DNA from: an uncultured Verrucomicrobia subdivision 3 bacterium
GTDB taxonomy: Bacteria; Verrucomicrobiota; Verrucomicrobiia; Limisphaerales; UBA11358
Length of the DNA stretch: 64,000 nt
Direction of reading: 5' to 3'
Assembly: GCA_903850425.1 (NCBI GenBank)
Contig: CAINLR010000141.1
Coordinates: forward strand, 45,296-109,295
The position numbers and the translations under genes are program-made. Position 1 is the first letter of the stretch. Each line of letters opens with the position of its first letter. Under the pieces are notes generated by a model. It was not told the DNA's origin. It ran no database searches and was given only the letters and a program-made list of their open reading frames with translations. Positions 7,065 through 21,249 of this stretch are shown in pieces.

Positions 7065-7071
7065 ATTCTCG

Positions 7072-8013: not shown

Positions 8014-8111
8014 CCAACATCCAACATCCAACACCCAACAACGAATGGCCGAGCGGCGTCCACCTGCGCCATGATTGGATATTCGATGTTGGATGTTCGA
8101 TGTTGGATGTT
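8009..8111. repeat. Palindromic GAT-heptad element A (arms 8009-8045 and 8076-8111)
   Basis: The left arm is aacatccaacatccaacatccaacacccaacaacgaa. The right arm is ttggatattcgatgttggatgttcgatgttggatgtt, the near reverse complement. The spacer is ~30 nt. Confidence 0.85.
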
Positions 8112-8117
8112 TCGCGT

Positions 8118-9146
8118 TCATGTCACTATTCCTTTTGCGCGTCGCGTGCCGATCAGCGATTCCACCACCAGCAGCAACAGCCCCGCCGCGACCGGCCAAT
8201 AGAATCGTTCCACGCCCCGACTATGCGTGCGCTGCAAACCCGCCGCGCGATCCAGAGTCTCCACTGCCGAGCGCACTTTCGCCAGTCCTTCGCCAAGTTG
8301 GCCCAGCGGAAAATAATTCCCACCGGTCGCCTGCGCGATGGCCGTCAGCGTTTTTTCATCCAACCGACTCACCACCGGCTCACCTTTGGCGTCGCGCACC
8401 AGTTCCATTTGGCCGACCGGATTCAACATTTGAATCTCGCTGCCCGCCGGCGAACCGAGGCCCACGGTGAAAACCACCACGCCGTTGGTGGCCAATGATT
8501 TCGCGGTTGCCACGCCACCTTTTTCCAGATCTTCGCCATCGGTCAGCAGCACGACGAGTTTGCGCCGGCTGTTTTTTTCCATCGCATGATTCGCCTCGCG
8601 GAGCGCCCGGCCGATGTCGGTGCCAGGGATGGGAATCGTTTTTTCATCCAAGGCTTGCAGCGCGGTTTCAAACGCATCGTAGTCCAACGTCAACGGGCAC
8701 TGCAAAAACGCGCTGCCCGCAAACCCGACCAAACCCACACGACCGCGGCCGTGCAAGCGGACAAAATCGTTGATGGCCAGCTTCGCACGCTGCAGCCGGT
8801 TGGGCCGGACATCCGTGGACAACATGCTGTAGGAACCATCGAGCACAAAGACCACATCCTCGCCAAGCCATTGGCTGCTGGACTTTAATTCGCCCCATTG
8901 CGGACGCGCCAGCGCCAGGCCGGCCAGCGCCAATGCGAGCAACAGCAAACCATTCTTGAATCGCCGCCGCGCCGGACTGTGCGACCTTGTGAGTTCTTCA
9001 ACGAAACGCGGCGAGGCGATTTGCGCCAGTTGCTGTTTGCGCTGCACCGCCGCGCGATGATGCAGCCACGCCAGCAACGCGGGCGCGACCACCGCGAGCA
9101 ACAGCCACTGCGGCGCTTCAAAATGCGGATGTGAAAAATCCATCAT
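8118..9146 (-). CDS. BatB-like von Willebrand factor A domain membrane protein
   Basis: 342 aa with two N-terminal TM helices. The VWA/MIDAS block is DVVFVLDGSYSMLSTDVRPNRLQRAK...VVLLTDGED, and there is a C-terminal TM helix. Confidence 0.85.
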   Translation of the reverse strand: MMDFSHPHFEAPQWLLLAVVAPALLAWLHHRAAVQRKQQLAQIASPRFVEELTRSHSPARRRFKNGLLLLALALAGLALARPQWGELKSSSQWLGEDVVFVLDGSYSMLSTDVRPNRLQRAKLAINDFVRLHGRGRVGLVGFAGSAFLQCPLTLDYDAFETALQALDEKTIPIPGTDIGRALREANHAMEKNSRRKLVVLLTDGEDLEKGGVATAKSLATNGVVVFTVGLGSPAGSEIQMLNPVGQMELVRDAKGEPVVSRLDEKTLTAIAQATGGNYFPLGQLGEGLAKVRSAVETLDRAAGLQRTHSRGVERFYWPVAAGLLLLVVESLIGTRRAKGIVT

Positions 9147-9206
9147 GGAGCTAATCGCAGTTCATGGAATTGGTCCGTGCTTGAGTGACGGTTTGATTGA
9201 GAGCGG

Positions 9207-9310
9207 TGGAAAAGCGGCGGAGGGCCGCCGCAGTCCAAGACGCTTCGCGCGGGTCGCGGCGTCTGAAAACGCCACGCGTCTTGGACTGCGCCAGCCCTCT
9301 GGCACTTTGT
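9207..9310. repeat. REP doublet (inverted pair of the gcagtccaagacgc-type unit)
   Basis: ggaaaagcggcggagggccgccgcagtccaagacgcttcgcgcg...cgcgtcttggactgcgccagccctctggc. The two halves are reverse complements. The same unit flanks the RAYT gene at 35.3-36.1 kb. Confidence 0.8.
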
Positions 9311-9380
9311 GCGAGATACGAACGCCCACGAAATATCCGCTCGAACCCAAGCACGCCCTGCAATGGCAAAGCCTGATTCC

Positions 9381-9415
9381 AAATCGTAAATCGTAAATCG
9401 CAAATCATAAATGCT
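9381..9415. repeat. Tandem heptad array (AAATCGT-type x5) in the batA-batB spacer
   Basis: Direct reading: aaatcgt aaatcgt aaatcgc aaatcat aaatgct. The reverse complement gives GATTTAC/GATTTGC heptads. Confidence 0.8.
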
Positions 9416-10456
9416 TCATGGCACGCGGCGATAACGTGTGTTGGCCAAAATCAACTCCAGCGCGAGCAAGCTCACCGCCGCCAGCAGCGGCCAGTGAAAC
9501 AGCGGCTCGTAAGTCGCATACCGCTTGATTTTGACCTCGGTTTTCTCCAGTTGATCAATCTGGTTGTAAATATTCAGCAACTCGCGCCGGTTAGTCGCGC
9601 GATAAAATTTCCCATGCGACAGGTCCGCCATTTTGCCGAGCACGGAATAATTCGCCGGCTGCAACAACAGCGTCGGAATGACATTGCCATTGGCATCGAG
9701 TTTTAGTTTTCCCGTGGCGGGATCGAACGCCGGCATGTAACACGGTTTCTCAATGCCGATGCCGATGGTGTAAATCTTCGACCCCACGGCGGCGGCCAGT
9801 TGCGCGGCCGGGAAGGGTTCGATCTCGCCTTTGTTGTTATCGCCATCGGTCAGCAAAATAATGACGCGGCTCTTGCTGTTCGGCACAGCCTTGAGGCGCT
9901 TGGCCGCAACCACAATCGCATCGCCGATGGCCGTGCCCAGATCGCCAATCGTGCCGACGTGCAGCCGGTGTAAGTTCTCGGCGAGCCAGTCGTGGTTCAG
10001 GGTCAGCGGGCTGGCGAGATAGGGCACGCCCGAGAAAACGACCAACCCAATGCGATCATTGGGCCTCTTGTGGATGAAATCGCCCAGCACCTCGTCGGCA
10101 ATGTCGAAGCGCGTCACTTTTTCGCTGGGCGCACCCATGTCTATCGCCGCCATGGACCACGACAGATCCAGCACGAGCATGATGTCAATGCCCGGTGTCT
10201 CGGTTTCAACGTGGTGGTTCGCCAGTCGTGGCCCGGCCAAAGTCACAATGCCCAGCGCGACCACGAGCAGCCGCAGAAAAATTAAAATCCGTCCCGGTGC
10301 CGCCTTGGCTTTGGCTCCCGCGGCGCGTGCAATCTCCGCGCTGGAAAACTTCAGCGCCGAGAACGTGCCAACCTTTCCGCGCAGCAACGCATAGATCGGC
10401 AATAGCGCGAGCAGGCTGAGCAACCACGGATATTCAAATTCAAAATTCTCCATCAT
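9416..10456 (-). CDS. BatA-like von Willebrand factor A domain membrane protein
   Basis: 346 aa with N-terminal TM helices. The VWA block is DIMLVLDLSWSMAAIDM...RVIILLTDGDNNKGE, and there is a C-terminal TM helix. It has a 4-nt overlap with the upstream gene. Confidence 0.85.
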   Translation of the reverse strand: MMENFEFEYPWLLSLLALLPIYALLRGKVGTFSALKFSSAEIARAAGAKAKAAPGRILIFLRLLVVALGIVTLAGPRLANHHVETETPGIDIMLVLDLSWSMAAIDMGAPSEKVTRFDIADEVLGDFIHKRPNDRIGLVVFSGVPYLASPLTLNHDWLAENLHRLHVGTIGDLGTAIGDAIVVAAKRLKAVPNSKSRVIILLTDGDNNKGEIEPFPAAQLAAAVGSKIYTIGIGIEKPCYMPAFDPATGKLKLDANGNVIPTLLLQPANYSVLGKMADLSHGKFYRATNRRELLNIYNQIDQLEKTEVKIKRYATYEPLFHWPLLAAVSLLALELILANTRYRRVP

Positions 10457-11148
10457 GCGCGCCGGCCTTGAGTTGAGGTTGCGGCCAAAGGCCGGAGTTG
10501 CGCCCGCCGCTGCTCGGCGCGCTCGATCAAATTCAACGCCTGATCTACGGCCTTGATTGGGACTGAAGCTGTCGCCGATGAAAACTTTTGCGCGTCACAG
10601 GCGCGCAAGAAATCAATCGCCGTCACGGCAAGCTCCGCGCCTATTTGGTCGCGGCCGGAAAGCAGCCGACCGAATTCGGCGGTGGTGAATTCGCCCGCCG
10701 GCAGTTGAAAGGCCGCGATGAAATAATGGCGGACGACCTGAGAGACGCGACTGAGAATCGCGCCGTCCTCCGGCTGCTGTCGCAGGCTTGCCAACGCCTG
10801 GCGAACTTGTTCTTCGGGAGAAATAATGTTTTTTGATTGGGAACGGCCGATCAGCCAGAGGACCAGCGCCATTACAACAATCGCAGCAAGCCCCACTAAA
10901 ATCATAGAACTTGCATGCTGCTCGACGAACGTGGGCGGCAACTCGCCATAAGGTGGCAATAACTTCAACGGGCCACTTTTATCGGCCGCGCCGGTCTGGC
11001 CATGAAGCGGTCGTGTGATAAGAAGAAGCAAAATCATCAAGGGAAACATCCCACAACGAACATCCCACAACGAACATCCACTCAAGCCAAGGCGCGTGGG
11101 CGTTGGCTGTTGGATGTTCGTTGTTGGATGTTGGATGTTTTTCATCAT
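10453..11148 (-). CDS. Small membrane protein in the DUF4381 position of bat operons (alternative start at 11049)
   Basis: It sits between the DUF58 and batA genes. It has one TM helix (MILVGLAAIVVMALVLWLIG) followed by a helical tail. The first 33 codons are read through palindromic element B. An internal MFPLMILLLL start lies at 11049. Confidence 0.55.
   Translation of the reverse strand: MMKNIQHPTTNIQQPTPTRLGLSGCSLWDVRCGMFPLMILLLLITRPLHGQTGAADKSGPLKLLPPYGELPPTFVEQHASSMILVGLAAIVVMALVLWLIGRSQSKNIISPEEQVRQALASLRQQPEDGAILSRVSQVVRHYFIAAFQLPAGEFTTAEFGRLLSGRDQIGAELAVTAIDFLRACDAQKFSSATASVPIKAVDQALNLIERAEQRRAQLRPLAATSTQGRRA
11045..11139. repeat. Palindromic GAT-heptad element B (arms 11045-11080 and 11108-11139)
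   Basis: The left arm is aacatcccacaacgaacatcccacaacgaacatcca and the right arm is tgttggatgttcgttgttggatgttggatgtt. It has the same architecture as element A. Confidence 0.85.
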
Positions 11149-12101
11149 TACCGACGCCTCCGGCCCCGGCGGATTTCAAAAAACCGCTGCAGGGTTTGAG
11201 CAAACGGTTCGACCGTGTTCAGCCGCAAGGTATCCACCGCGGTGCGGTTCAACGACTGGTCCAGTTGCTCCAATCGTTCTTCGTTAATCGAAGCGAAGCG
11301 ATTGCGGACTGCGCTGCGACTGGAGTCCAGTTCGAGGATTTCGCCCGTCTCGGCATCTTCAATCGTGAGCAATCCGGCATCCGGCAACTGACTTTCGCGC
11401 GGATCGTGCAGATGCAAGCAGACCAGATCGTGCCGCGCGTTCGTGATCCCGAGTTCTTGGATGACGTCGCGCCCCCTCAGCCCGCCCCTTTCGCCATCCG
11501 ATGGGGAGAGGCTGGCGAAGCCGGGTGCGGGGTTCGTCGCGCTGTGCAAAAAATCCGTAAGCAGAAAAACAATCGAGCGGCGCGGCAAGGTGTGATTCAA
11601 AAACGCCAGGGCAGCGGGAATATCCGTGCCGCGCTTCTTCGGCGTGAAGGCGAGCATTTCGCGGACGATGCGCAAAATATGGCGACGGCCTTTGCGCGGC
11701 GGAATGAACAATTCCACCGACTCGGTGAACAGCAGCAGCGCGACTTTATCGCCGTTGCGCGTGGCGGAAAGCGCGAGCGTGGCGGCGACCTCGGCGGCGT
11801 ATTCGCGTTTGGAACGATCGCCCGAACCGAAGGCTGATGAGCCGGAGACATCCACCGCCAGCACGGCGGCGAGTTCGCGTTCCTCGCGGAAGCGTTTCAC
11901 GAATGGCCGGCCCATGCGATGGGTGACGTTCCAGTCGATGTCGCGCACATCGTCGCCCGGGATGTATTCGCGCAACTCCTCGAAGTCCATGCCGCGCCCC
12001 TTGAAATGGCTCAAGTAGGCGCCCACCATCGTGTCGTTGACGAGGCGATTGGTGCGCAACTCCACGCGGCGGACGGTTTCCAAGAGTTCAGTGATTGTCA
12101 T
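11148..12101 (-). CDS. DUF58 family protein (MoxR-associated, VWA-like)
   Basis: Start set at MTITELLETVRRVELRTNRL.., matching the start of the duplicated fragment at 19315. Motifs present are YIPGDDVRDIDWNVTHR and LAVDVSGS. The 34 extra N-terminal codons in the track ORF are unsupported. Confidence 0.85.
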   Translation of the reverse strand: MTITELLETVRRVELRTNRLVNDTMVGAYLSHFKGRGMDFEELREYIPGDDVRDIDWNVTHRMGRPFVKRFREERELAAVLAVDVSGSSAFGSGDRSKREYAAEVAATLALSATRNGDKVALLLFTESVELFIPPRKGRRHILRIVREMLAFTPKKRGTDIPAALAFLNHTLPRRSIVFLLTDFLHSATNPAPGFASLSPSDGERGGLRGRDVIQELGITNARHDLVCLHLHDPRESQLPDAGLLTIEDAETGEILELDSSRSAVRNRFASINEERLEQLDQSLNRTAVDTLRLNTVEPFAQTLQRFFEIRRGRRRR

Positions 12102-12616
12102 TGGGAAACGCAATAAACCCCAGGCAAACACTGTGGTTCTGCGAAGCTTTGCCGTTTGGGCAAACCTGTGCAAAAACCGGCATAACGGGGCAAAGAAGGG
12201 CAAAGAAAGGGGCCAAGGGTTTGCACCCGTTCAATTCCCGATCAGTTGTTTCTGCCGATGACATTTTGCGATATTGTTGGCCGAACGTTGCTATCACGTC
12301 GAGCTTCATTCGGCATATTTTCAGCCATTAAACGACGCGTGTCCACACCGATGCTTTGCATGGCTAAAAACACCGAGAATGAGCTGGTGAGGCACGACAC
12401 AGCCCTCGCCAAAAAATAGCGAGCGGCGGTCTTGCGAGCGCTTGGGCGGAATAGTCTCGATCTTAGCCGGTGCGGAAAGGATCAGACCTGGATTTGCCGC
12501 TTTGGCCGGAAGCGGACCAGCGGCGTGATCTGATCACGCACCGCCTGCTTAATTACGCCCGTGCATTTGCCAGCCGAGCGCTATTTTCACTGGCACACCC
12601 AGATGTCAAATCCCGG

Positions 12617-15600
12617 CTAGGGCGAAAGCCGCACCCGGTAGTAACGGCGACCAGACGAACCGGCATTGGTGTCGTTATATTGAAATGGGGTGGCGGGTGC
12701 GAGATTGGTCAGCAGATCGCTCCAGAGCGACAAATTTGTGCTGGTGGAAATGATGTAGTCCGGCCCGGTGGTGCCGTTAACCTGCAATTTAAACTGCGCG
12801 TTGGTGTAGCCAAGTGCGGTCAATGTGACCGGAGTCAATGGGCGCACGATCACGGAGAATGACTTGCTGTCGCTCAAATGCTGGCTGTTGATTGCCAGAG
12901 GACTATTGTCCGTTACTTGCACCTGAATCGTGTTCGTGGTGTTTGCCAGCGCCGTGGTTGGGCGCCAGTTGAACACCCCTGCAGTGGTGATTCCCGCGCC
13001 GGCAGGCGGACTGATGAGTGAGAATGTCAGGGCATTGGCGGGGAGGTCGGCATCCGTTGCCGTCGCGGTGAAGCTGACGGTCTGGCCTGGATTCACGCTG
13101 AAGTTAGCCAATGCCCCCAGCACCGGAGCGACATTCACTTCGTTGACCACTACGGTAAAGCTATTCGTCGCCGACAAATTGGGCGAACCATTATCAATGA
13201 CCTTCGTCGTGAAAGTATTTGTGCTCGGCCCGTCGGCTTCAGTCGTCGCCCAGGTGATGATGCCATTAGTCGAAATTGTCGCGGCGGTCGGTGCCACCAA
13301 CAGCGAATAGCTCAGCAGATTAGTGGGGATGTCCGCGTCCGTAGCAGTGTTGGTGACGAGGAGTGTTGTCAGTTCGTTGATCATCACTTGGGTTTGCGTG
13401 GGCAGCACCGGGGCGCTGTTCACTTCATTAACGACAATTTGATAACTATTGGTAACACTCAATGATTTCGCATTGATCGCCAGCGGATTCGTATCGGTGA
13501 CGCTGATCGTGACGGTGTTAGTGCTCGGTCCTTGCGCTTCAGTTGGCGTCCAGGTGATGGCGCCACTGGTGGAAACCGCGAGTCCGGACGGACCGGAAAC
13601 CAAGGCAAAGACTAATGGGTTGGAGGGTTGGTCGGCGTCGGTCGCGGTGGCCGTCGCAGAATAGAGGGCCAACTCATTGATATTCGTGTTCGCCGGCAAC
13701 GTCAGGACCGGCGCTACGTTCACCTCATTCACAAAAACAGTAAAGGAGTTGGTCGCGCTCAGGCTTTTGGCATTGACCGCATAAACATTGCTGTCCGTAA
13801 CCACGGTGGTGAAAATATTCGTGCCGGGGCCCTGCGCTTCTGTCGGCGTCCAGGTGATAATGCCGTTCGTGCTGATGACGGCATTGGTTGGCGCCACGAG
13901 CAGGCTGTAAGTCAACGGATTTACCGGCAGATCCGCATCCACCGCCGTGTTGGTCACAACCAGCGTCGTCAATTCGTTGACCGAGAGATTCGTCTGCGTC
14001 GGCAGGACTGGCGCCGTGTTGATCTCATAAACGATGACGCTGAAAGTATTCGTATCACTCAAGCTGGGGGCTCCATTGTCGGCTACTTTCATCGTAAAGG
14101 TGTTGGTGCTGGGCCCTTGCGCTTCATTGGGCGTCCAGGTAATCACACCGGCGGCCGAAAGGCTCGCATTCGTGGGTGCAGCCAGCAGGGTGTAAGTCAA
14201 ACTATCTGCCGGAAGGTCCAGGTCAGTGGCCGTATTGGTCACGACTAATACCGTTAGTTCGTTGATGGCGCGATTAGTTTGCGCCGACAAAATCGGCGCT
14301 GAGTTCAACACGGCGAGAGTGAAGATGGCGGCCCCATAATTTGTGCTCCACGCTTGTTTTGAAGGTAAAAGAAAATTGGTGAATACTCCGGTCTGCGATC
14401 CGTAGGACAGGACGTCAAAAGAATTGCCGGCAATGGGATAGTAACCATTGTTCAAAGTCACGCTGACCGTGCCGGCAAGCGTTGCGCTGCCAGACAGATA
14501 GATTCGACCGTAGTCGCTGAGAGTATTGATGCCAAAATTCAACCGGCCACCCGAGAGGTCATAAATCCCATTCAAACTGATGGTGCCCGCCTGGGCGTCC
14601 AAAGTCCCCAAATTGAAGAATGGAGCATAGATGGTCGCCGTGTCACTGCCGCTGGATTTTCGGACTGTGCCATAGTTTACCACGGAAGGTGTGCCACTAC
14701 CACTGCCGTCGTTATAATAGGCAATTAATGAACCGGTCTGTAAGTCAATCACACCTCTTTCCGCATTCACCAGCAACCCGTTGCCACCACCATAGGCAGA
14801 ATATTGAATGCAGCGGATGCCGCCATTCGTGAGCACGATGGTTCCACGATTGGTAATCACCCCAACGAATTCCAAATAACTACCATTGCCGGGATTTACC
14901 ACCAGCATACCATTCGTCGCCACAGAACCCACGCTGGTGGATGCGATCTGCCCGCTACTCCAAACCAACTGGCCCGCGATGCTGCCGTTAAGCGCCAGGG
15001 TGCCGCCGTTCAGGCCGTTCGTTCCCGCGCCTGTAATCGTGCCATCCATTTCATAGTTATTGGGGTAAGCCACGGTTGCCCCAGGTTCGGCCTGATACAC
15101 GCCGCTGCCATTGCCACCGCCGTTCAGACTGATTGTGCCGGATTGCGCGTCCAACAGGCCGGCATTGTAGAACGGGGCAGCGATGACGGTCGTATCGTTA
15201 CCATTGGATTTACGCACGGTGCCATCATTGACCAGCGAAGGAGTGCCGGTGCCGGTGCCGTCCGTGTAATAGGCAATTAAGGCTCCGGTCTGGAAGTCAA
15301 TCAACCCCCCGGCCGCATTCACCAGCAAGCCATGACCACCACCGTAGCTGGAATATTCGATGCAGCGAATGCCGCCGTTCGTCAGCACGATGGTTCCACG
15401 ATTGGTAATCACCCCAACGAATTCCACATAGCTGCCATTGCCGGGATTTACCGACAACACGGCATTCGTCGCCACCGTCAAGACGCAGCCCGCGCCAATC
15501 TGGCCACCATTCCAATCAAGCCGGCTGGCGATCACAGCATTGGTGCCCGCCAAAACCGCATCGCCCGATAGGATCGCAGCGGCCGTATTCAAGCTCCCGT

Positions 15601-17059
15601 TCACGGCAATCTCGCCATGCACAAAGGTATCCAGGCCAGCACCGGTCAGCGCGCTGCCCACTTGATAATCATTGGCGAAACTCAAGGTGGCTCCGGCCTC
15701 GGCCAAAAACACGCCGTTGCCGCTGCCACCAGCACCACTTAGGCTGAGCGTGCCGGTTTGCACATCCAAGGTTCCGGCATTAAAAAATGGCGGCTTAATG
15801 ACCGTCGTGTCCGCACTGTGGGATTTGCGGATGATCCCATAGTTGACCACCGATGGGGTTCCAATACCGCTGCCGTCCGTATAAAAATCAATGAGCGAAC
15901 CACTCTGCAGATCGATCAGACCGCTCGCGGCATTCACCAATAATCCGCGACCACTTCCATAACTACCGTATTCAATGCAACGAATGCCGCCGTTGGTCAA
16001 CTGGACTCTGCCATAGTTGGTCACCACACCGGAAAATTCCAAGTAGCTGCCGTTACTCGGATTTACCACCATCTGTCCATTGGTCGCGACGGAACCCACG
16101 CTGGCCGCGCTAATCTGCCCGCCAACCCAGAGCAGTTGACCAGTTACCTTGCCATTCAGCGTGAGGTATCCACCGGTTAACACATTGGTTCCAGCCCCGG
16201 CCATTGTGCCGTCCACCTGATAGTTATTCGGATAGACGATCGTCGCCCCCGCCTCGGCTTGATAGACGCCCCCGCCATTGCCGCCGCCATCCAAGCTGAT
16301 GGATCCCGTCTGCGCATCTAAAGTTCCATAATTATACAACGGAGCCTTAATGTCAGTAGTATCGCTGCCATTCGATTTGTGGATGGTGCCGTAATTGACT
16401 ACGGCGGGAATGCCGCTACCGCTGCCGTCCGCGTAATACTCCAAATAGCTGCCGCTTTGCAGGTCAATCAGTCCGCCAGCGTTGTTCATCAGCAAGCCGT
16501 AACCACCGCCGTAGCTGCTCAGTTCAATGCAACGAATGCCGCCATTGGTAATCGCCATGACGCCGCGGTTGGTAATGACGCCTGAGAATTCCAAGTAGCT
16601 GCCCGGGCTAGGATTCACCATCACCAAGCCATTCGTCGCTACCGCCAGAAAACAATCCCCGTTGATCCGGCCGGCGGTCCAATCCATTCGCCCATTAATG
16701 GTGAGCAGGCCGCCACCCGCCAAAACGCCGCCATTGAGCGCGAGGATGCCGTTGGTGTTTACCCGACTGGAGCTGGTCAGGGTCAGACTATTCGCTCCCG
16801 AAGAAAGGGTCTGCTTGCCACTGTTGCCGCCCAGCGTCAGGCTGGCGACGGCGGCGGCAAGATCCAGCGTGACCGAGTAGGTCCCGGCCTGAGTGACCAG
16901 GACATCATTGGTCGGTCCGGGAACCTGATTAGGCGACCAACTGGCTGCATCACTCCAATTCCCCCCGGCCAAGTTCGTCCAAGTGATGCTCGTGGCCCGG
17001 GCGGAATAACTTAAGAGAAGGAAGACGCTAAGAATAACACCTGATAATTGTTTGTGCAT
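12617..17059 (-). CDS. Large secreted repeat adhesin-like protein (4 x ~185-aa Cys-containing repeats, 5 x cadherin-like repeats, C-terminal YYRV module)
   Basis: It has a signal peptide, MHKQLSGVILSVFLLLSYSARA. There are four repeats centred on TNGGIRCIE(Y/L)SSYGGG.GLL.NA.GLID.Q(S/T)G. There are five ~100-aa units of the form APVL..QTN...NEL..L.VTNTATDADLP.N.L.Y.L...P..A.I...G.ITWTPTEAQGPSTN. The C-terminus is ...GRRYYRVRLSP. Confidence 0.8.
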   Translation of the reverse strand: MHKQLSGVILSVFLLLSYSARATSITWTNLAGGNWSDAASWSPNQVPGPTNDVLVTQAGTYSVTLDLAAAVASLTLGGNSGKQTLSSGANSLTLTSSSRVNTNGILALNGGVLAGGGLLTINGRMDWTAGRINGDCFLAVATNGLVMVNPSPGSYLEFSGVITNRGVMAITNGGIRCIELSSYGGGYGLLMNNAGGLIDLQSGSYLEYYADGSGSGIPAVVNYGTIHKSNGSDTTDIKAPLYNYGTLDAQTGSISLDGGGNGGGVYQAEAGATIVYPNNYQVDGTMAGAGTNVLTGGYLTLNGKVTGQLLWVGGQISAASVGSVATNGQMVVNPSNGSYLEFSGVVTNYGRVQLTNGGIRCIEYGSYGSGRGLLVNAASGLIDLQSGSLIDFYTDGSGIGTPSVVNYGIIRKSHSADTTVIKPPFFNAGTLDVQTGTLSLSGAGGSGNGVFLAEAGATLSFANDYQVGSALTGAGLDTFVHGEIAVNGSLNTAAAILSGDAVLAGTNAVIASRLDWNGGQIGAGCVLTVATNAVLSVNPGNGSYVEFVGVITNRGTIVLTNGGIRCIEYSSYGGGHGLLVNAAGGLIDFQTGALIAYYTDGTGTGTPSLVNDGTVRKSNGNDTTVIAAPFYNAGLLDAQSGTISLNGGGNGSGVYQAEPGATVAYPNNYEMDGTITGAGTNGLNGGTLALNGSIAGQLVWSSGQIASTSVGSVATNGMLVVNPGNGSYLEFVGVITNRGTIVLTNGGIRCIQYSAYGGGNGLLVNAERGVIDLQTGSLIAYYNDGSGSGTPSVVNYGTVRKSSGSDTATIYAPFFNLGTLDAQAGTISLNGIYDLSGGRLNFGINTLSDYGRIYLSGSATLAGTVSVTLNNGYYPIAGNSFDVLSYGSQTGVFTNFLLPSKQAWSTNYGAAIFTLAVLNSAPILSAQTNRAINELTVLVVTNTATDLDLPADSLTYTLLAAPTNASLSAAGVITWTPNEAQGPSTNTFTMKVADNGAPSLSDTNTFSVIVYEINTAPVLPTQTNLSVNELTTLVVTNTAVDADLPVNPLTYSLLVAPTNAVISTNGIITWTPTEAQGPGTNIFTTVVTDSNVYAVNAKSLSATNSFTVFVNEVNVAPVLTLPANTNINELALYSATATATDADQPSNPLVFALVSGPSGLAVSTSGAITWTPTEAQGPSTNTVTISVTDTNPLAINAKSLSVTNSYQIVVNEVNSAPVLPTQTQVMINELTTLLVTNTATDADIPTNLLSYSLLVAPTAATISTNGIITWATTEADGPSTNTFTTKVIDNGSPNLSATNSFTVVVNEVNVAPVLGALANFSVNPGQTVSFTATATDADLPANALTFSLISPPAGAGITTAGVFNWRPTTALANTTNTIQVQVTDNSPLAINSQHLSDSKSFSVIVRPLTPVTLTALGYTNAQFKLQVNGTTGPDYIISTSTNLSLWSDLLTNLAPATPFQYNDTNAGSSGRRYYRVRLSP

Positions 17060-17207
17060 AAAACTCTAATAATTAAGATGAACATTAAACACCTCGCAGG
17101 ATTTGTAAAGCCAAACCCATGTCGTTTTTCTTGGTTCAGTAACTAGTTCAATGTTCTAGCTTTTGTGGGCATGGCCGAGCGCCGCCAATGACTGTTTAGC
17201 CGCGGAA

Positions 17208-18944
17208 TCATTGACCAGCGTAGGCGACGCGCCAGAGCGTGCCATTGCCATCCTCGCTCACCAGCAACGCGCCATCGTGCGCCACGGCTACGCCCACCGG
17301 CCGCCCCCACACGCTATGGTTGTCCACCACAAACCCGGTCAGAAAGTCTTCGTAGTCGCCGGTGGGAAGGCCGTGCTCGAGATGCGCGCGCACGACCTTG
17401 TAGCCCGTGCGCAACGAGCGATTCCACGAACCATGCAGCGCGGCAAAGGCTTCCCCGCGATAGGCGGCCGGGAACACCGCCCCGCCGTCGGTGGCGGTAT
17501 AGAAGGTCATCTCCAACGAGGCCGAATGCGCTTGCTCAAGAATGTCGGGGACAATGACCTTGCCCGCGAGATCCGGGCGCTCACCGGCATGCCGTGGGTC
17601 TGCGTGGCTGCCTGAATAATACCAAGGCCAGCCGTAGAATCCGCCTTCCTTTACCCGCGTGACATAATCCGGCACCAGGTCATCGCCCAAGCCGTCGCGT
17701 TCATTGGTGGAAACCCACAAGTCGCCGGTTTCCGGATTCACCGCCAGCCCGACGCCGTTGCGAATACCGGTCGCGAATGCACGCAGCGGTGCGTGTCCCT
17801 CGGGATCGGTGACGAGAATATTCGCCCGGCGGGTTTCTGCGCCCCAAGCGGCACCCAAGCCATGCGCGGCTTCCCACTCCGCGATGGCTTGCGGATTCTT
17901 TTTGCCCATGTCCTCGGCCACATTGGAGCCAGAACCAACCGAGATAAACATACGTTTGCCGTCGCGGGAAAATGCCACGTCGCGCGTGCTATGCCCGCCG
18001 TGGCTGTCGCTGAGCTGCGGGACAACGATCTGAGCCTCGCCGCGCGCCTTCAAATCGCCGTTGCCATACGCGAAGCGGACGACCGAGTTATTGTTCGCGA
18101 CATAGACCCACTGCGGATTATCTCCGGCAGGATAAAAGGCGATGCCGAAAGGCTGATCGAGGCCGGCGGCAAAAATCTGATTTTCCGAGGGCGCGTCCGC
18201 TCCGTCGGCTGCGCGCAAGACGCGGATTCGACGCGCGCCGGTTTCCGCGAGAAAAATGTCGCCATTCGGCGCCACGCGCAACAAGCGCGGATTGGATAGG
18301 CCAGCGGCAAACTGGCGCACGGTAAAGCCGGGGGGAACCGACAGCGTGGCACCAGCGGGTTGTTTGACCACTTGCGGCCCATTGCCCGCCGAAGCGGTTC
18401 GGAACGGCGGCGGCAACGCGGCGGCGAGGATGTGGTGCTTGACTCCCGGAGCCGCATGTTGCCAAGCCCCGCCGTCCGCTTCCACCGTCGCCGGCAATAG
18501 TTGCACCACACTGTTGGAGAGCGTAACTCCGGCCGGAATCATCAGCGTCGCAAGGTAAGCAATCACATCGAGACGGTTGGTGGCCTCCGGCACGGGCAAC
18601 GGCATGGTGGTGCCCGGAACCGCCAGCAACGGATTCACCAGGAAGTGGTCCAGCGTGGCGGAATCCCAGACGATCCCTGATTCACTCAGAGCTTTCGTGT
18701 GGTTAAAACCCAAACTAGAACCAGCGCGCCGCCCCACGACGCCGACCAGCGTGGGGCCTTGTTTGATGATCACCGTGTTGCCCGGCCCCAAGTTGGGCGT
18801 GTGACAGATGGCGCAGTTCGCTTGAAAAAAAGCTTTGCCACGGCTGGAATCGCCCGCCGCCCGATCCTGGGCTGCCGCCGGATGGCCAGCCCCGGCCACT
18901 GCCAGCACGATGAAAAAAAGCCCGCGGAGAAATGACAGCTTCAT
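17208..18944 (-). CDS. Cytochrome c domain fused to PQQ-dependent (sorbosone/glucose dehydrogenase-type) beta-propeller oxidoreductase
   Basis: It has a signal peptide and a CAICH haem-binding motif near the N-terminus. These are followed by a ~400-aa region typical of soluble sugar dehydrogenases (PNGDIFLAETGARRIRVL.., DGKRMFISVGSGSN, GIRNGVGLAVNPETGDLWVSTNERDGLGDDLVPDY). Confidence 0.8.
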   Translation of the reverse strand: MKLSFLRGLFFIVLAVAGAGHPAAAQDRAAGDSSRGKAFFQANCAICHTPNLGPGNTVIIKQGPTLVGVVGRRAGSSLGFNHTKALSESGIVWDSATLDHFLVNPLLAVPGTTMPLPVPEATNRLDVIAYLATLMIPAGVTLSNSVVQLLPATVEADGGAWQHAAPGVKHHILAAALPPPFRTASAGNGPQVVKQPAGATLSVPPGFTVRQFAAGLSNPRLLRVAPNGDIFLAETGARRIRVLRAADGADAPSENQIFAAGLDQPFGIAFYPAGDNPQWVYVANNNSVVRFAYGNGDLKARGEAQIVVPQLSDSHGGHSTRDVAFSRDGKRMFISVGSGSNVAEDMGKKNPQAIAEWEAAHGLGAAWGAETRRANILVTDPEGHAPLRAFATGIRNGVGLAVNPETGDLWVSTNERDGLGDDLVPDYVTRVKEGGFYGWPWYYSGSHADPRHAGERPDLAGKVIVPDILEQAHSASLEMTFYTATDGGAVFPAAYRGEAFAALHGSWNRSLRTGYKVVRAHLEHGLPTGDYEDFLTGFVVDNHSVWGRPVGVAVAHDGALLVSEDGNGTLWRVAYAGQ

Positions 18945-19057
18945 ATTAAAATAAGTTCGGTTGCATTAAAATGCTGCGGGATGCTAATGAATTAACCTGC
19001 CGGATGTCAGTATCATTCGTAATGCGTTCCATCACCCAGAACGATGGCAGGATGCGC

Positions 19058-19315
19058 TCAAATATCCACCGCCAGCACAGCGGCAAGTTCGCGTTCCGCG
19101 CGGAAGCGTTTCACAAATGGCCGGCCCATGCGATGCCTGACGCTCCAGTCAATATCGCGCAGATCGTCGCCCGGGATGTATTCGCGCAACTCCTCGAAGT
19201 CCATGCCGCGCCCCTTGAAATGACTCAAATAAGCGCCCACCACCGTGTCGTTGACGAGGCGATTGGTGCGCAACTCAACGCGGCGGACGGTTTCGAGAAG
19301 TTCGGTGACGGTCAT
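19058..19315 (-). pseudogene. Truncated 5' fragment of a DUF58 gene (85 codons), still start/stop-coupled to the upstream gene
   Basis: MTVTELLETVRRVELRTNRLVNDTVVGAYLSHFKGRGMDFEELREYIPGDDLRDIDWSVRHRMGRPFVKRFRAERELAAVLAVDI*. This aligns without gaps to the first 84 codons of the full DUF58 gene at 11148-12101. The homology ends abruptly at ~19064. Confidence 0.75.
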
Positions 19316-19725
19316 TTTTGCGGTCTGAAGTCCTCAACGTATTTCGGCTCACCGACCAATTCTAATTTTACTCCGCGACTTTTGATTGTCACTGCGTGAA
19401 TGGAGTCGCAGACCAAATGCATCTCGGTGGGTTTTGCAACTTCAAGCGGCGTGGGAATCAAATTATTGTGCCGCTCGCCATCCACCACAATTTCACCACC
19501 CATTAAATCGCATGGCCAATCTGGAAAATTGCCGCTGATGGATGCTTCAGAAAAAATCAATCTGGCTTCCTGAACCCAACCAGTGCCAGCATCAAATGCA
19601 GGACGTCTTTCAGATTTGTGGAGATACGCTGGCTGGAAATGCACAATTACAGCGCCGTTATGCTCGATAATCTCGGCAATCGTCGAATCCTCTATTTCCA
19701 TTGTGGTATTCACAATTTCCTTCAC
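19312..19725 (-). CDS. Hypothetical protein (137 aa from GTG 19725, or 129 aa from ATG 19701), AT-richer than its neighbours
   Basis: The ORF is wedged between moxR (GTGA overlap) and the DUF58 fragment (ATGA overlap). I recognise no motif in it. Its base composition is visibly lower in GC than the flanking genes. Confidence 0.5.
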   Translation of the reverse strand: MKEIVNTTMEIEDSTIAEIIEHNGAVIVHFQPAYLHKSERRPAFDAGTGWVQEARLIFSEASISGNFPDWPCDLMGGEIVVDGERHNNLIPTPLEVAKPTEMHLVCDSIHAVTIKSRGVKLELVGEPKYVEDFRPQK

Positions 19726-20702
19726 GGCACCGGCACGGCATACAAAATCTTTTTGACGATGGCGTCGCTCGTCACGGACTGCGCCTCGGCCTCGTAAGTC
19801 AGGATGATGCGGTGGCGCAGGACGTCGGGGCCGATGCTTTTCACGTCCTCGGGAATCACATAGTCGCGGCCTTGCAGCAGCGCCCAGGCTTTGGCGGCGA
19901 TGGTCAGATAAATTGTCGCGCGCGGCGACGCGCCGAACTGGATGAAATGTTTCAGGTCGAGCTGGTAGTCCTCCGGCTTGCGCGTGGCGAAAACCAGTTT
20001 GACGATGTAATCGCGGATCTTTTCGTCCACGTGGATCTGGTCCACGATTTTTTGCGTGGCCAGAATTTCGTCAAGATCGACGACGGGCTTGATGATGGTT
20101 TCCGGCGCGGTGAACGCCATGCGATCCAGAATGTGCCGTTCCTCCGCGAACGACGGATAATCCAAAATCACCTTGAACATGAAGCGGTCCACCTGCGCTT
20201 CGGGCAAGGGATAGGTGCCTTCCTGATCAATTGGATTTTCCGTGGCGAGCACAAGAAACGGCGACGGTAGCTTGCGCGTTTCGCCGCCGAGCGTGACCTG
20301 ACGTTCCTGCATCGCTTCGAGCAGCGCACTTTGCACTTTCGCCGGCGCGCGATTGATTTCGTCGGCGAGCACGAAGTTCGCGAACACCGGCCCTTGCGTG
20401 ACGTGATATTTTCCGTCCTGCGGCGAATAAATCAGATTGCCGACAATATCGGCGGGCAATAAGTCCGGTGTGAATTGAATGCGGCGAAAGCTGGCGTTGA
20501 CGGCCGACGCGAGCGTGCGGACGGAAAGCGTTTTGGCGAGGCCGGGCACGCCTTCGAGCAGGACGTGGCCGTTGGCGAGCAGGCCGACGAGCAGTCGCTC
20601 CACCAATTGTTCCTGCCCGACAATCACGCGACCCACTTCGGTGCGCAAGGTGCGAATCCAAGCGGAAGTTTCCGCGACCTGTTCTTTTAACGGTTTGCTC
20701 AT
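19722..20702 (-). CDS. moxR: MoxR-family AAA+ ATPase
   Basis: 326 aa. Walker A is LLEGVPGLAKT and Walker B is FVLADEINRAPAKVQSALLEAMQE. It also contains LATENPIDQEGTYPLPEAQVDRF, textbook for MoxR/RavA-like ATPases. Confidence 0.92.
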   Translation of the reverse strand: MSKPLKEQVAETSAWIRTLRTEVGRVIVGQEQLVERLLVGLLANGHVLLEGVPGLAKTLSVRTLASAVNASFRRIQFTPDLLPADIVGNLIYSPQDGKYHVTQGPVFANFVLADEINRAPAKVQSALLEAMQERQVTLGGETRKLPSPFLVLATENPIDQEGTYPLPEAQVDRFMFKVILDYPSFAEERHILDRMAFTAPETIIKPVVDLDEILATQKIVDQIHVDEKIRDYIVKLVFATRKPEDYQLDLKHFIQFGASPRATIYLTIAAKAWALLQGRDYVIPEDVKSIGPDVLRHRIILTYEAEAQSVTSDAIVKKILYAVPVP

Positions 20703-20811
20703 GGCCGCAGAATTTAGGGCGTGAAATGGAGGAACTCAAGCGCCGTCGCAGCTCACAAGGTGCATTTTCGCTTTGCGCCCGGGCGCGAAAATGCTTAACG
20801 TCTGGCTGGTT

Positions 20812-20885
20812 TGTCCGATGGTGTAATGGTAACACAGCGCTCTTTGGAGGCGTTATTCATGGTTCGAATCCATGTCGGACAGCCA
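20812..20885 (+). tRNA. tRNA-Gln (anticodon UUG)
   Basis: Hand-folded cloverleaf. The acceptor stem is TGTCCGA/TCGGACA with a U1:A72 pair, discriminator G and encoded CCA. The D stem is GTGT/ACAC. The anticodon loop is CTTTGGA (anticodon TTG). The T arm is CATGG-TTCGAAT-CCATG. Confidence 0.9.
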
Positions 20886-20941
20886 CTTTTGCTAAGGAAA
20901 TCCAGGGTTCTACAAATCTTTGCACAGAGTTTGCCCGGATT

Positions 20942-21193: not shown

Positions 21194-21249
21194 CCCCGCA
21201 GCCTACCCAACTCATATTCCTATTCCATCGAAAACAGCGGGGAACCAGT

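What the first reader, a model, noticed from the sequence alone, without database searches (positions are those of the whole stretch)
11850..19315. MoxR-DUF58-Bat operon split by a ~7 kb two-gene block bounded by a diverged 252-bp duplication of the DUF58 5' end
Canonical bat loci run moxR, DUF58, small TM protein, batA-E. Here moxR (19722-20702) is followed by a 137-aa ORF and then only the first 84 codons of a DUF58 gene (19064-19315), which ends abruptly. About 7 kb further on, a full-length DUF58 gene begins with the same 252 nt (11850-12101) and continues into batA-E.

The intervening block (12102-19063) carries a 1480-aa adhesin-like gene and a cytochrome-c/PQQ-type dehydrogenase. Each has its own AT-rich upstream region.

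By hand alignment the two 252-nt copies are gap-free with roughly 21 mismatches. These give only 6 amino-acid changes in 84 codons, so most differences are synonymous. That pattern suggests the copies diverged as functional genes in separate lineages, rather than one decaying in place. It fits a Campbell-type or homology-facilitated recombination event that imported foreign DNA. A consequence is that the ATPase is now uncoupled from its VWA/DUF58 partners.
Basis: partly seen in the sequence, partly recalled or inferred. Interest (0 to 1): 0.62.

Follow-up and report, generated by a model that had tools for sequence, protein, structure and literature searches.

The report
Gene-end stub at a cargo hotspot
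The duplicated 252-nt piece of the DUF58 gene is real, but it is one of many leftover gene-end stubs in soil Verrucomicrobia (Limisphaerales), where the junction between moxR and DUF58 repeatedly picks up unrelated accessory genes by recombination.

Summary
Window 11850-12101 and 19064-19315 are gap-free 252-nt direct repeats with 21 mismatches and 6 amino-acid changes. They flank a 6.96-kb block holding a cytochrome-c/GSDH dehydrogenase and a 1480-aa adhesin. Independent metagenome assemblies show the same layout, so it is not an assembly artefact.

- The upstream copy (B) is a decaying stub. Its five replacements hit residues that are otherwise near-invariant and occur in no other homologue.
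- A and B are each other's closest relatives, and the inserted block has the same composition as the host.
- Synonymous enrichment is weak once A's mosaic first 23 nt and mutation bias are allowed for (p=0.02-0.11).

The main result is that this is not a one-off. Across 82 Limisphaerales loci the moxR-DUF58 gap runs from -1 nt to 7.6 kb and holds unrelated, mostly co-oriented cargo. Eleven of 25 loci with a gap of at least 400 nt carry stubs. DUF58 5' stubs always start at the ATG; moxR 3' stubs always end at the stop codon. All 22 stubs lie inside the gap.

The best explanation is recombinase-free cassette accretion anchored on the conserved gene ends. This resembles 'insertion with long target duplication' and displacement by homology-facilitated illegitimate recombination. 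Which cargo arrived last is unresolved. It is a new member of a known kind and of moderate interest.

The parts
19722..20702 (-). moxR AAA+ ATPase, the left conserved arm of the hotspot
   Evidence: Pfam AAA_3 9e-64 and AAA_lid_2. It is 91.7% nt identical to L088 moxR. Third-position identity to L092 rises 0.60/0.73/0.85 from 5' to 3', which indicates mosaicism.
19312..19725 (-). p137, a small accessory gene. Its start overlaps the moxR stop (GTGA) and its stop overlaps the stub's start codon (ATGA).
   Evidence: No Pfam hit. GC3 is 0.46 against 0.69 for the window. About 80 homologues exist. They occur in the same hotspot in L094 and L095/L096 and elsewhere in L099.
19058..19315 (-). DUF58 5' stub (copy B). 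Codons 1-84 (19064-19315) are homologous to the full gene; one foreign codon and a stop follow.
   Evidence: alignment; Pfam DUF58, profile positions 1-44 only; five derived replacements at near-invariant sites; signature residues VLSRA found only in the stub cluster P0200.
18945..19063 (-). Junction and AT-rich spacer between the stub end (19064) and the dehydrogenase start codon
   Evidence: Homology to DUF58 stops at 19063/19064. GC is 0.43. A promoter-like site lies at 19010-18981. There is no similarity to any fetched locus and no moxR 3' fragment here.
17208..18944 (-). Cargo gene 1: cytochrome-c + glucose/sorbosone-dehydrogenase-like protein (578 aa)
   Evidence: Pfam GSDH 1.5e-12 and Cytochrom_C 2.9e-6. 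GC3 is 0.717. The 80 homologue loci fetched (81% aa identity or less) never lie next to an adhesin, DUF58 or moxR.
12617..17059 (-). Cargo gene 2: repetitive Big_9/cadherin-like surface protein (1480 aa)
   Evidence: Pfam Big_9 and Cadherin_3. It has internal 350-900-nt repeats. GC3 is 0.658.
12102..12391 (-). Conserved leader directly upstream of the full DUF58, with a promoter-like TGGACA-17-GAAAAT at 12345-12317
   Evidence: It is 79% identical to L042 2362-2651 and recognisable in L009; in both, it lies directly upstream of DUF58. No Rfam family matched.
11148..12101 (-). Full-length DUF58/VWA gene. Copy A is 11850-12101. Its first 23 nt (12079-12101) are identical to L042; from about nt 24 it is closest to B.
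   Evidence: Pfam DUF58 1.3e-72 and VWA_2. Mosaic structure. Closest homologues are 90-92% identical at the amino-acid level.
5229..11148 (-). Rest of the bat operon: DUF4381-like protein (10453-11148), BatA (9416-10456), BatB (8118-9146), TPR protein (7072-8199), BatD-like protein (5229-7142)
   Evidence: Pfam. Gene calls and a faint BatD hit in the identical contig L001. The order is conserved in all relatives.

Best explanation
The locus is one instance of a clade-wide recombination hotspot. It sits between the last codons of moxR and the first roughly 250 nt of DUF58 in the MoxR-DUF58-Bat operon of Limisphaerales (Verrucomicrobia subdivision 3).

Proposed mechanism: DNA from the same locus in related genomes carries different cargo flanked by the conserved moxR 3' end and DUF58 5' end. 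It is added rather than swapped when only one conserved arm recombines homologously and the other end joins illegitimately. Equivalent routes are a single crossover with a circularised piece, or a tandem duplication followed by replacement of one cargo copy. Each such event leaves a truncated copy of a conserved gene end as a scar. Because the DNA just outside each conserved gene differs between genomes, DUF58 stubs always appear to start at the ATG and moxR stubs always appear to end at the stop codon.

In this window the scar is the 85-codon stub B. It is still fused to p137 and moxR and is now decaying. The working DUF58-bat genes sit 7 kb downstream behind a dehydrogenase, an adhesin and a conserved promoter-bearing leader.

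Shown here: the repeat; the stub's decay; the variable cargo; the recurrent, orientation- and boundary-constrained stubs; the absence of recombinase genes from all Pfam-scanned gap ORFs; and the mosaic 5' end of copy A.

Inferred: the recombination mechanism, the order of arrival of the cargo, and transcription of DUF58-bat from the leader.
For: Repeat and truncation. Independent assemblies.

Variable gap: -1 nt to about 5 kb in the relatives (7.6 kb in the window), and compact in the 90%-identical relative L088.

Cargo is unrelated between genomes. It includes a MazF toxin, DNA methylase, Schlafen-like helicase, GH35, SASA esterase, ankyrin proteins, KilA-N, DUF3800, IS200 and Mutator transposases, and ParE toxin-antitoxin modules.

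DUF58 5' stubs occur in the window, L011, L014, L016 (two), L026, L029, L036, L068, L092 (three), L094 and L095. All are co-oriented, all start at profile position 1, and their lengths run from 57 to 262 nt.

moxR 3' stubs occur in L012 (two), L016 (two), L018, L022, L026, L068, L092 and L095. All end at the stop codon.

Mini-loci (moxR stub-cargo-DUF58 stub) occur in L092 and L095. In L068 a DUF58 stub joins directly to a moxR stub, and L061 looks like the uninterrupted state.

All 22 stubs lie in the 4.6% of searched sequence that is gap. Eleven of 25 loci with a gap of at least 400 nt are affected, against no true stub in 44 compact loci.

No integrase was found in any Pfam-scanned gap ORF.

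B carries five unique replacements at near-invariant residues. A is a mosaic with an L042-like leader plus its first 23 nt. moxR is mosaic relative to L092.

Published analogues: insertion with long, variable target duplication and no mobility genes (PMC2853133); sequential displacement by homology-facilitated illegitimate recombination leaving gene-end remnants (PMC5361080).
Against: - No empty-site allele of this species was found, so neither the event nor its polarity was observed directly.
- Five independent stubs end within nt 63-68. That could indicate a preferred cut site or a site-specific activity rather than random illegitimate joins.
- All stubs are 262 nt or shorter. Random breakpoints do not predict this unless long repeats are lost quickly, which is an untested assumption.
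- Synonymous-site conservation, which frequent inter-lineage exchange should raise at the arms, is only slightly raised in DUF58 codons 21-60 (0.63 against about 0.52) and not at the moxR 3' end.
- The window's stub is joined to unrelated spacer DNA, not to a moxR stub as in L068.
- Most data come from MAGs and metagenome contigs, so some loci may be chimeric or incomplete.
Confidence: 0.7

Rival explanations
1. A resident moxR-p137-DUF58-bat operon was hit by one Campbell-type or homology-facilitated event. That event imported the dehydrogenase-adhesin-leader block together with a donor DUF58 5' end. Copy B is then the native 5' end and copy A (at least its start) is donor DNA.
For: The structure is the expected product of a single crossover. 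p137 is translationally coupled to both moxR and the stub, as in an intact operon. L094, a 91%-identical relative, also has moxR-p137 followed by a stub, but cut at about nt 104 and followed by different cargo. That fits repeated hits into a resident moxR-p137-DUF58 operon. A's first 23 nt and the leader have a different affinity (L042) from the gene body, which puts a crossover at about nt 23-38. Eight of eight C>T differences are synonymous (p=0.018).
Against: The block is compositionally native. A and B are sister sequences. No circular intermediate, donor or empty site was found. p137 is itself the compositional outlier (GC3 0.46) and occurs as an inserted mini-locus in L095, which suggests p137 rather than the block is the mobile part. 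The overall synonymous excess is not significant after corrections (p=0.11).
Confidence: 0.3
2. Reverse polarity. The resident locus was moxR-...-dehydrogenase-adhesin-leader-DUF58. A donor fragment moxR(3' part)-p137-DUF58(1-252) recombined homologously in moxR, and its DUF58 end joined illegitimately upstream of the dehydrogenase (classical HFIR). B is then donor DNA that diverged as part of a functional gene and has decayed since.
For: p137 has atypical composition and a patchy, mobile distribution. L095 carries a moxR stub-p137-DUF58 stub as an inserted mini-locus with both arms truncated. moxR shows a 5'-to-3' mosaic gradient relative to L092. The leader plus DUF58 arrangement exists as an established unit in L042 and L009 with no moxR nearby. 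This model explains mostly synonymous A-B differences plus later decay.
Against: Window moxR is uniformly about 92% identical to L088 with no clear breakpoint. No donor with a full-length B-like DUF58 was found, although the last search was not exhaustive for full-length proteins. This model needs the dehydrogenase-adhesin block to have been in the gap already, and no other genome shows that.
Confidence: 0.3
3. Site-specific integration of cassettes by a dedicated recombinase acting in trans (integron-like, or like islands that target a gene end and carry a replacement end), with the DUF58 5' region as the attachment site.
For: Cargo is mostly co-oriented (35 of 45 ORFs). Stubs form arrays (L092, L016). 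Five stubs end within nt 63-68 at ...CGCCTCGTCAACG. Heptamer repeats are enriched just upstream of the ATG.
Against: No integrase or recombinase was found in any Pfam-scanned gap ORF or in the window's insert. Stub ends range from nt 57 to 262, and moxR stubs start at 10 or more different positions. No shared motif was found at junctions or upstream of the ATGs. No Rfam or attC-like element was found.
Confidence: 0.05
4. Artefact or functional paralogue. Either the split is a mis-assembly, or copy B is a functional short protein kept by selection.
For: B keeps an open frame for all 84 codons and its non-synonymous fraction is below the uniform-neutral expectation (p=0.016).
Against: Identical layouts appear in at least four independent assemblies. 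B lacks the whole VWA domain. It has five replacements at near-invariant residues, unique to the stub. Stubs in other genomes are 19-43 codons long and degenerate. With the observed mutation spectrum, B is compatible with neutrality (p=0.11).
Confidence: 0.03

Closest known systems
Insertion with long target duplication (Nobusato et al. 2000, recalled from memory; Furuta, Abe & Kobayashi 2010, PMC2853133)
   Same: A gene block under 20 kb with no mobility genes is flanked by long direct repeats of variable length (46-423 bp in their tables). The repeats correspond to a single-copy sequence in a related genome and are 90-99% identical. The window has 252-bp repeats at 91.7% identity, a 6.96-kb insert, and a single copy in L088.
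   Different: Their cases were found by screening restriction-modification genes at scattered sites. Here the cargo is a dehydrogenase and an adhesin, the site is one fixed operon junction reused across a clade, and stubs of both flanking genes accumulate in arrays.
Sequential displacement arrays: T6SS effector-immunity modules in Vibrio cholerae (Kirchberger et al. 2017, PMC5361080), and Rhs/CDI orphan modules as cited there
   Same: A conserved stretch next to a variable region serves as a homology anchor. New modules are added rather than swapped, older material is pushed along, and remnants of the displaced gene end remain. The proposed mechanism is homology-facilitated illegitimate recombination without an integrase.
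   Different: In those systems the variable part is the 3' end of the conserved gene itself plus its immunity gene, and retention has a clear selective rationale. Here the cargo is functionally heterogeneous, sits between two different conserved genes, and scars come from both sides.
Evolutionary unit spanning the 3' region of one ORF, the intergenic region and the 5' region of the next ORF (Tsuru & Kobayashi 2008, PMC2568036; abstract only seen)
   Same: The transferable unit is bounded inside two adjacent genes rather than at gene borders, like the moxR stub-cargo-DUF58 stub mini-loci in L092 and L095.
   Different: That case concerns tandem paralogues within one species. I read only the abstract, so the comparison is limited.
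Gene-end replacement by site-specific elements (phage 21/e14 in icd; islands in the 5' end of dusA). Recalled from memory, not checked here.
   Same: The insert is flanked by a partial duplicate of the target gene end, so the gene stays intact and a displaced fragment remains. Differences between the copies are mostly synonymous.
   Different: Those elements encode an integrase and use a fixed crossover core. Here no integrase is present and stub ends vary from nt 57 to 262.
Canonical Bat/aerotolerance operon (moxR, DUF58, small TM protein, batA-E)
   Same: The window and all relatives carry moxR, DUF58/VWA, a small DUF4381-like protein, two BatA-domain VWA proteins, a TPR protein and a BatD-like protein in that order.
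   Different: In this clade moxR and DUF58 are often separated by 0.4-7.6 kb of accessory genes (25 of 69 loci).

Membership tests
MoxR-DUF58-Bat operon | MoxR-class AAA+ ATPase (AAA_3 with AAA_lid_2) | tested here: met
   AAA_3 9e-64, AAA_lid_2 2e-24 for window 19722-20702.
MoxR-DUF58-Bat operon | Full DUF58 protein with a VWA domain, followed by BatA-domain VWA proteins and TPR/BatD-like proteins | tested here: met
   DUF58 1e-72 plus VWA_2; BatA plus VWA in two proteins; TPR_16 below its cut-off. BatD only as a faint precomputed hit.
MoxR-DUF58-Bat operon | moxR immediately followed by DUF58 | tested here: not met
   In the window they are 7.6 kb apart. Adjacency holds in 44 of 69 relatives and in L088.
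Insertion with long target duplication (criteria of PMC2853133) | Insert under 20 kb, flanked by direct repeats longer than 30 bp | tested here: met
   6,962-bp insert and 252-bp repeats with 231 of 252 positions identical.
Insertion with long target duplication (criteria of PMC2853133) | No mobility genes in the insert | tested here: met
   Pfam finds only dehydrogenase and adhesin domains in the two cargo genes. A DDE transposase lies outside the insert, upstream of moxR.
Insertion with long target duplication (criteria of PMC2853133) | The repeat corresponds to a single-copy target in a related genome that lacks the insert | tested here: met
   L088-L091 (DUF58 90% aa identity) have one copy and moxR-83 nt-DUF58. 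This is a different species; no empty site of the same species was found.
Insertion with long target duplication (criteria of PMC2853133) | Cargo is a restriction-modification system (a criterion of their screen) | tested here: not met
   Cargo is a dehydrogenase plus an adhesin. This criterion defined their search, not the mechanism.
HFIR-type sequential displacement array | A conserved anchor borders a variable region whose content differs between related genomes | tested here: met
HFIR-type sequential displacement array | Remnants of displaced gene ends, sometimes several in a row | tested here: met
   One stub in the window; up to four in L092 and L016.
HFIR-type sequential displacement array | One homologous and one illegitimate (microhomology) junction, shown by comparison with donor and recipient | tested here: inconclusive
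   Neither donor nor recipient was identified for the window. In L068 versus L061, a DUF58 stub joins a moxR stub with only a weak GCG..AT overlap.
HFIR-type sequential displacement array | DNA uptake by natural transformation or another route in these organisms | not testable with these tools
   The organisms are uncultured and known only from MAGs and metagenome contigs.
Site-specific gene-end-replacing island / integron | Integrase or other recombinase encoded in or next to the inserted DNA | tested here: not met
   None in the window insert or in the 30 gap ORFs scanned. Only sporadic IS200 and Mutator transposases were seen.
Site-specific gene-end-replacing island / integron | Fixed crossover position (constant repeat boundary) | tested here: not met
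   Stub ends fall at nt 57-262, and moxR stub starts at profile positions 170-257. A partial cluster at nt 63-68 remains unexplained.
Campbell-type single-crossover integration | Direct repeats flank the insert, each a hybrid of donor and resident sequence around one crossover point | tested here: inconclusive
   A is a mosaic with a breakpoint at about nt 23-38. The reciprocal pattern in B cannot be tested without the donor.
Campbell-type single-crossover integration | A circular intermediate carrying one copy of the repeat | not testable with these tools
   This would need raw reads or PCR across the adhesin-leader-repeat-dehydrogenase junction.

The most novel reading that the evidence does not exclude
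The moxR|DUF58 junction of Limisphaerales could be a dedicated, recombinase-independent gene-capture site, a 'homology-arm integron'. In this reading the strongly conserved DUF58 5' end and moxR 3' end act as universal arms that let cassettes move between species. Captured genes would be expressed by operon read-through, which would explain the co-orientation. Local features such as the heptamer tandem repeats or a preferred break near nt 63-68 would actively promote capture. The stubs would then be the att-like footprints of a new class of cassette system rather than incidental scars.
Probability: 0.12. Interest if true: 0.7.

Novelty: new member of a known kind. Interest (0 to 1): 0.4.

Why it matters
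For this window, the finding turns an apparently singular 'split operon' into an ordinary product of a recurrent process. The 85-codon ORF is a pseudogene stub that should not be annotated as a DUF58 protein. The moxR/DUF58 separation should not be read as a unique functional uncoupling.

More generally, the locus shows that an integration hotspot can sit inside a conserved operon. It also keeps a readable record of past insertions, as stubs of both flanking genes, without any recombinase gene. That makes it a useful natural system for studying homology-anchored illegitimate gene gain in uncultured soil and peat Verrucomicrobia. It is also a caution for MAG assembly, since contigs L008 and L093 break at or near this junction.

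Tried and rejected
1. Assembly artefact. Rejected: identical layout in independent assemblies.
2. Compositional foreignness of the block (GC, GC3). No signal; only p137 is atypical.
3. Locating the dehydrogenase-adhesin pair in relatives. The 80 GSDH homologue loci fetched (81% identity or less) never have an adhesin, DUF58 or moxR nearby, so no donor context was found.
4. Searching for a full-length DUF58 with B's signature residues. None among 239 homologues, but the last search returned mostly short proteins and is not exhaustive.
5. Raised synonymous conservation at the arms as a sign of frequent exchange. Only a slight rise in DUF58 codons 21-60 and none at the moxR 3' end.
6. A breakpoint in window moxR to settle polarity. 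Uniform against L088, graded against L092; not decisive.
7. A shared motif at stub junctions or upstream of the ATGs. None is general; 'TTTTCC ATG' is frequent but occurs before both full genes and stubs.
8. Rfam scan of 11800-21400. Only a tRNA; no structured-RNA family in the conserved leader.
9. The idea that A's five 5'-terminal changes are adaptive de novo mutations for a new translation start. Rejected, because L042 has the identical 23 nt together with the homologous leader.
10. The 73-aa ORF overlapping the leader (12088-12309). Its hand translation does not look like a real protein and it was not pursued.
11. Structure prediction and fold searches. Not used, because the question concerns DNA rearrangement rather than protein function.

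Full report
**1. The observation.** All genes in the region lie on the minus strand. Aligning window 11850-12101 with 19064-19315 gives a gap-free 252-nt match with 21 mismatches (91.7% identity) and 6 amino-acid differences in 84 codons. Extending 150 nt on each side shows that homology begins at the base before the ATG and ends after codon 84. Copy B then reads ATT TGA and runs into unrelated AT-rich DNA, while copy A continues as a full gene.

- moxR (AAA_3, 9e-64) at 19722-20702
- a 137-aa ORF with no family ('p137') at 19312-19725
- an 85-aa ORF matching only the first 44 positions of the DUF58 model at 19058-19315
- a cytochrome-c + GSDH protein at 17208-18944
- a 1480-aa Big_9/cadherin-like protein at 12617-17059
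- a full DUF58/VWA protein at 11148-12101
- then a DUF4381-like protein, two BatA-domain VWA proteins and a TPR protein

The two cargo genes have AT-rich upstream spacers (GC 0.43 against 0.585 for the window). The same layout with identical proteins occurs in at least four independent metagenome assemblies made with different assemblers. The structure is therefore real.

**2. Who the organism is, and what relatives look like.** The full DUF58 has thousands of homologues. The closest are 90-92% identical, and those that carry a name are labelled Verrucomicrobiales or Verrucomicrobiota. A scan of GTDB species representatives returned 80 loci, mostly named Limisphaerales, Verrucomicrobia subdivision 3 or Pedosphaera.

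Mapping the window proteins onto these loci shows that distant relatives have moxR abutting or overlapping DUF58. Many closer relatives have 0.4-5 kb between the two genes. A relative with DUF58 at 90% identity (L088-L091) is compact (moxR-83 nt-DUF58). Another at 90% (L092) has 4.8 kb of different genes in the gap.

ORFs in the gaps are almost all unrelated between genomes. They encode a miscellany: SASA esterases, an N6/N4 DNA methylase, ankyrin proteins, MazF and ParE toxins, a Schlafen-like helicase, a GH35 galactosidase, an aspartyl protease, DUF3800, KilA-N, IS200-type and Mutator transposases, and others. No integrase was seen. Gap ORFs are mostly co-oriented with the operon (35 of 45, p=2e-4). 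This is the signature of an accessory-gene hotspot bounded by two conserved genes.

**3. The duplicated gene end is not unique.** A contig from a related strain (L094; moxR-p137 91% identical to the window) also has p137 followed by a DUF58 start. There the homology stops after about 104 nt, is heavily degraded, and leads into a SASA-like gene instead of the dehydrogenase.

A nucleotide profile of the first 330 nt of DUF58, searched over all loci, found extra partial copies in the window, L011, L014, L016 (two), L026, L029, L036, L068, L092 (three) and L095-L098. The L094 stub was identified separately, by direct alignment. Every one is in the operon orientation, starts at profile position 1 (the ATG) and lies between moxR and the real DUF58. 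Lengths run from 57 to 262 nt, and the window's stub is the longest. Stubs are 87-100% identical to their own genome's full copy, apart from the heavily degraded L094 stub. Five independent stubs end within nt 63-68.

The mirror-image search, with the last 303 nt of moxR, found partial moxR 3' ends in L012 (two), L016 (two), L018, L022, L026, L068, L092 and L095-L097. All are co-oriented, all end at the stop codon, and their 5' ends vary. Some loci contain whole mini-loci, a moxR stub, a cargo gene and a DUF58 stub: a 170-aa gene in L092 and a p137 homologue in L095. In L068 a DUF58 stub (87 nt) is joined directly to a moxR stub (46 nt). L061 has the same upstream gene followed by an uninterrupted DUF58, which looks like a before/after pair.

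Counting distinct loci:
- 11 of 25 loci with a gap of at least 400 nt carry a stub.
- None of 44 compact loci carries a true stub; the single hit, in L030, is a divergent second moxR-DUF58 pair.
- All 22 stubs fall in the 4.6% of the 1.28 Mb searched that is gap (chance about 3e-30).

**4. What the two copies in the window say.** Polarising the 21 differences with 80 orthologues gives three groups.
- B alone is derived at M25V, V52L, N58S, T60R and E73A. The outgroups agree with A at these sites in 77-80 of 80 cases.
- B is also derived at several third-position C>T changes.
- A alone is derived at five sites within its first 21 nt.

Among 239 DUF58 homologues retrieved in two searches, B's five residues occur only in the 85-aa stub cluster itself, and 232 carry the consensus MVNTE. 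B is therefore a decaying fragment.

A's odd first codons are not new mutations. L042 has the identical first 23 nt together with a homologous 290-nt leader directly upstream (79% identical; also recognisable in L009). Beyond nt 23, L042 falls to 87% while A is 93.5% identical to B. Copy A is thus a mosaic with a breakpoint near nt 23-38. A and B also share rare synonymous states (for example site 198, found in 2 of 61 outgroups) and are each other's nearest sequences.

Formal estimates:
- A versus B: dS 0.276, dN 0.040, omega 0.144
- A versus nine orthologues: omega 0.05-0.10
- B versus the same orthologues: omega 0.07-0.15

The naive model, in which the copies were identical at the event and B has been neutral since, is rejected (p about 0.005-0.016). 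After removing the mosaic first 23 nt and weighting by the observed mutation spectrum, however, there are 6 non-synonymous changes of 15 against 8.85 expected under neutrality (p=0.11). Only the C>T class stands out, with 8 of 8 synonymous (p=0.018). The evidence that the copies had already diverged as functional genes is therefore suggestive, not firm.

The block is not compositionally foreign: GC3 is 0.72 (dehydrogenase) and 0.66 (adhesin) against 0.69 +/- 0.09 for the window. p137 is atypical at 0.46. Homologues of the dehydrogenase (81% identity or less) are never next to an adhesin, DUF58 or moxR, so no donor context was found.

**5. Mechanism.** The regular boundaries follow from the hotspot itself. 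DNA just upstream of the DUF58 ATG and just downstream of the moxR stop differs between genomes, so any imported piece is homologous only inside the genes. Stubs arise when a piece from the same locus of another genome is added instead of swapped. There are three candidate routes.
- One conserved arm recombines homologously and the other end joins illegitimately (HFIR).
- The interval is tandemly duplicated, which creates a DUF58 stub-moxR stub joint like the one in L068, and one cargo copy is later replaced.

I cannot separate these routes. I also cannot tell which cargo in the window is newer. p137's composition, its patchy distribution and its occurrence as a doubly truncated mini-locus in L095 favour p137 + B as the newcomer. 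The L094 comparison and A's mosaic start favour insertion of the dehydrogenase-adhesin-leader block into a resident moxR-p137-DUF58 operon. moxR is mosaic relative to L092, with third-position identity of 0.60, 0.73 and 0.85 along the gene, but uniform against L088. This shows that crossovers occur in the arm but does not decide polarity.

All surviving stubs are 262 nt or shorter. This may be because longer direct repeats delete their cargo quickly; that is an inference I did not test. The expected rise in synonymous conservation at the arms is small.

**6. Expression.** The 290-nt leader conserved in the window, L042 and L009 contains a promoter-like TGGACA-17-GAAAAT at 12345-12317. The co-orientation of cargo also leaves read-through possible. 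Neither was tested.

**7. Comparison with what is known.** Two published patterns match well. The first is 'insertion with long target duplication': gene blocks without mobility genes, flanked by long, variable direct repeats that are single-copy in a related genome (PMC2853133). The second is sequential displacement at T6SS, Rhs and CDI loci, where a conserved anchor and an illegitimate second junction add modules and leave remnants, explicitly without an integrase (PMC5361080). A unit of evolution spanning the 3' part of one ORF, the spacer and the 5' part of the next has also been described (PMC2568036; abstract only). Site-specific gene-end replacement (phage 21/e14 in icd, dusA islands; recalled from memory) resembles the outcome but fails on two tested features: no integrase and no fixed crossover. 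Two papers mention MoxR, DUF58 and BatA together. By their titles and abstracts they concern other organisms and protein function, not a hotspot at this junction; I did not read them.

**8. Verdict.** The locus is one member of a recurrent, recombinase-free accretion hotspot inside the MoxR-DUF58-Bat operon of Limisphaerales, and the 85-codon ORF is a decaying scar. It is a new member of a known kind. It is of moderate interest to people who study bacterial genome plasticity and of low interest as a functional novelty.

Noticed in passing
L013, L016, L020, L023, L035, L038, L041, L054, L060, L065, L069, L070, L077, L079, L084, L088, L095: the 80 nt upstream of the DUF58 ATG: Tandem heptanucleotide repeats sit in the short moxR-DUF58 spacer. 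The unit differs between genomes (CGTAAAT, TTCGGAT, GGCAATC, CAGATTT, CGTCATG and others). They occur in 17 of 82 loci against 14 of 1640 random 80-nt windows. Their function is unknown; they could be regulatory, prone to slippage, or fragile sites that promote insertion.
   Followed up: partly
window 20812-23025: Directly upstream of moxR lie tRNA-Gln (20812-20885, +), a 473-aa DDE_Tnp_1_4 transposase (21308-22729, +) and tRNA-Asp (22949-23025, -). L088, L092 and L012 have no tRNA near moxR, so the left flank of the operon is also rearranged in this genome. The 132-aa ORF at 20795-21193 overlaps the tRNA and is probably spurious.
   Followed up: partly
window 19312-19725; L095 487-897; L099 2245-2655 and 10001-10411: p137 belongs to a family of about 80 small proteins (130-137 aa) with no Pfam domain. 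It has atypically low GC3 (0.46). It occurs both in this hotspot and elsewhere, including once right after a terminase-like ORF. It may be a small mobile or phage-related gene of unknown function.
   Followed up: partly
window 12102-12391; L042 2362-2651; L009 about 1653-1950: A conserved 290-nt non-coding leader lies upstream of DUF58 in three genomes that lack an adjacent moxR. It has conserved blocks (GCTGAAAATA...GAAGCTCGACG...CGCAAAATG and CCCCTTTCTTTGCCC) and no Rfam match. It could be a promoter plus a regulatory 5' UTR.
   Followed up: partly
window 12617-17059: The adhesin gene contains several internal direct repeats of 350-900 nt at 65-78% identity (tandem Ig-like modules). It is therefore itself prone to recombination and length variation.
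   Followed up: no
window 59180-60208 and 34741-35196: Two ORFs have much lower GC than the rest of the window (0.449 with GC3 0.35, and 0.478). They are likely to be other recently acquired genes.
   Followed up: no
L030 18748-19997: This genome has a second, divergent moxR-DUF58 pair (49% and 27% aa identity) about 8 kb downstream of the main operon. Paralogous MoxR-DUF58 modules therefore coexist in some genomes.
   Followed up: no
L008 (DATLVR010000091.1) and L093 (ERZ27256706 k141_151639): Contigs of the closest relatives end at DUF58 residue 10 (L008) or 178 nt upstream of DUF58, within a moxR 3' end (L093). Assembly breaks at this junction suggest repeats or strain heterogeneity there.
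   Followed up: no
L011, L020, L031, L034, L037, L056, L061, L079, L081, L085 (titled Bifidobacterium/Bifidobacteriaceae); L030, L038 (Ca. Acidoferrum); L072 (Ca. Sulfotelmatobacter); L078 (Ca. Sulfopaludibacter); L060 (Rhodospirillales): Public MAG records that carry this Limisphaerales-type operon (70-79% DUF58 identity) have titles naming unrelated taxa. These are probably mislabelled or contaminated bins.
   Followed up: no
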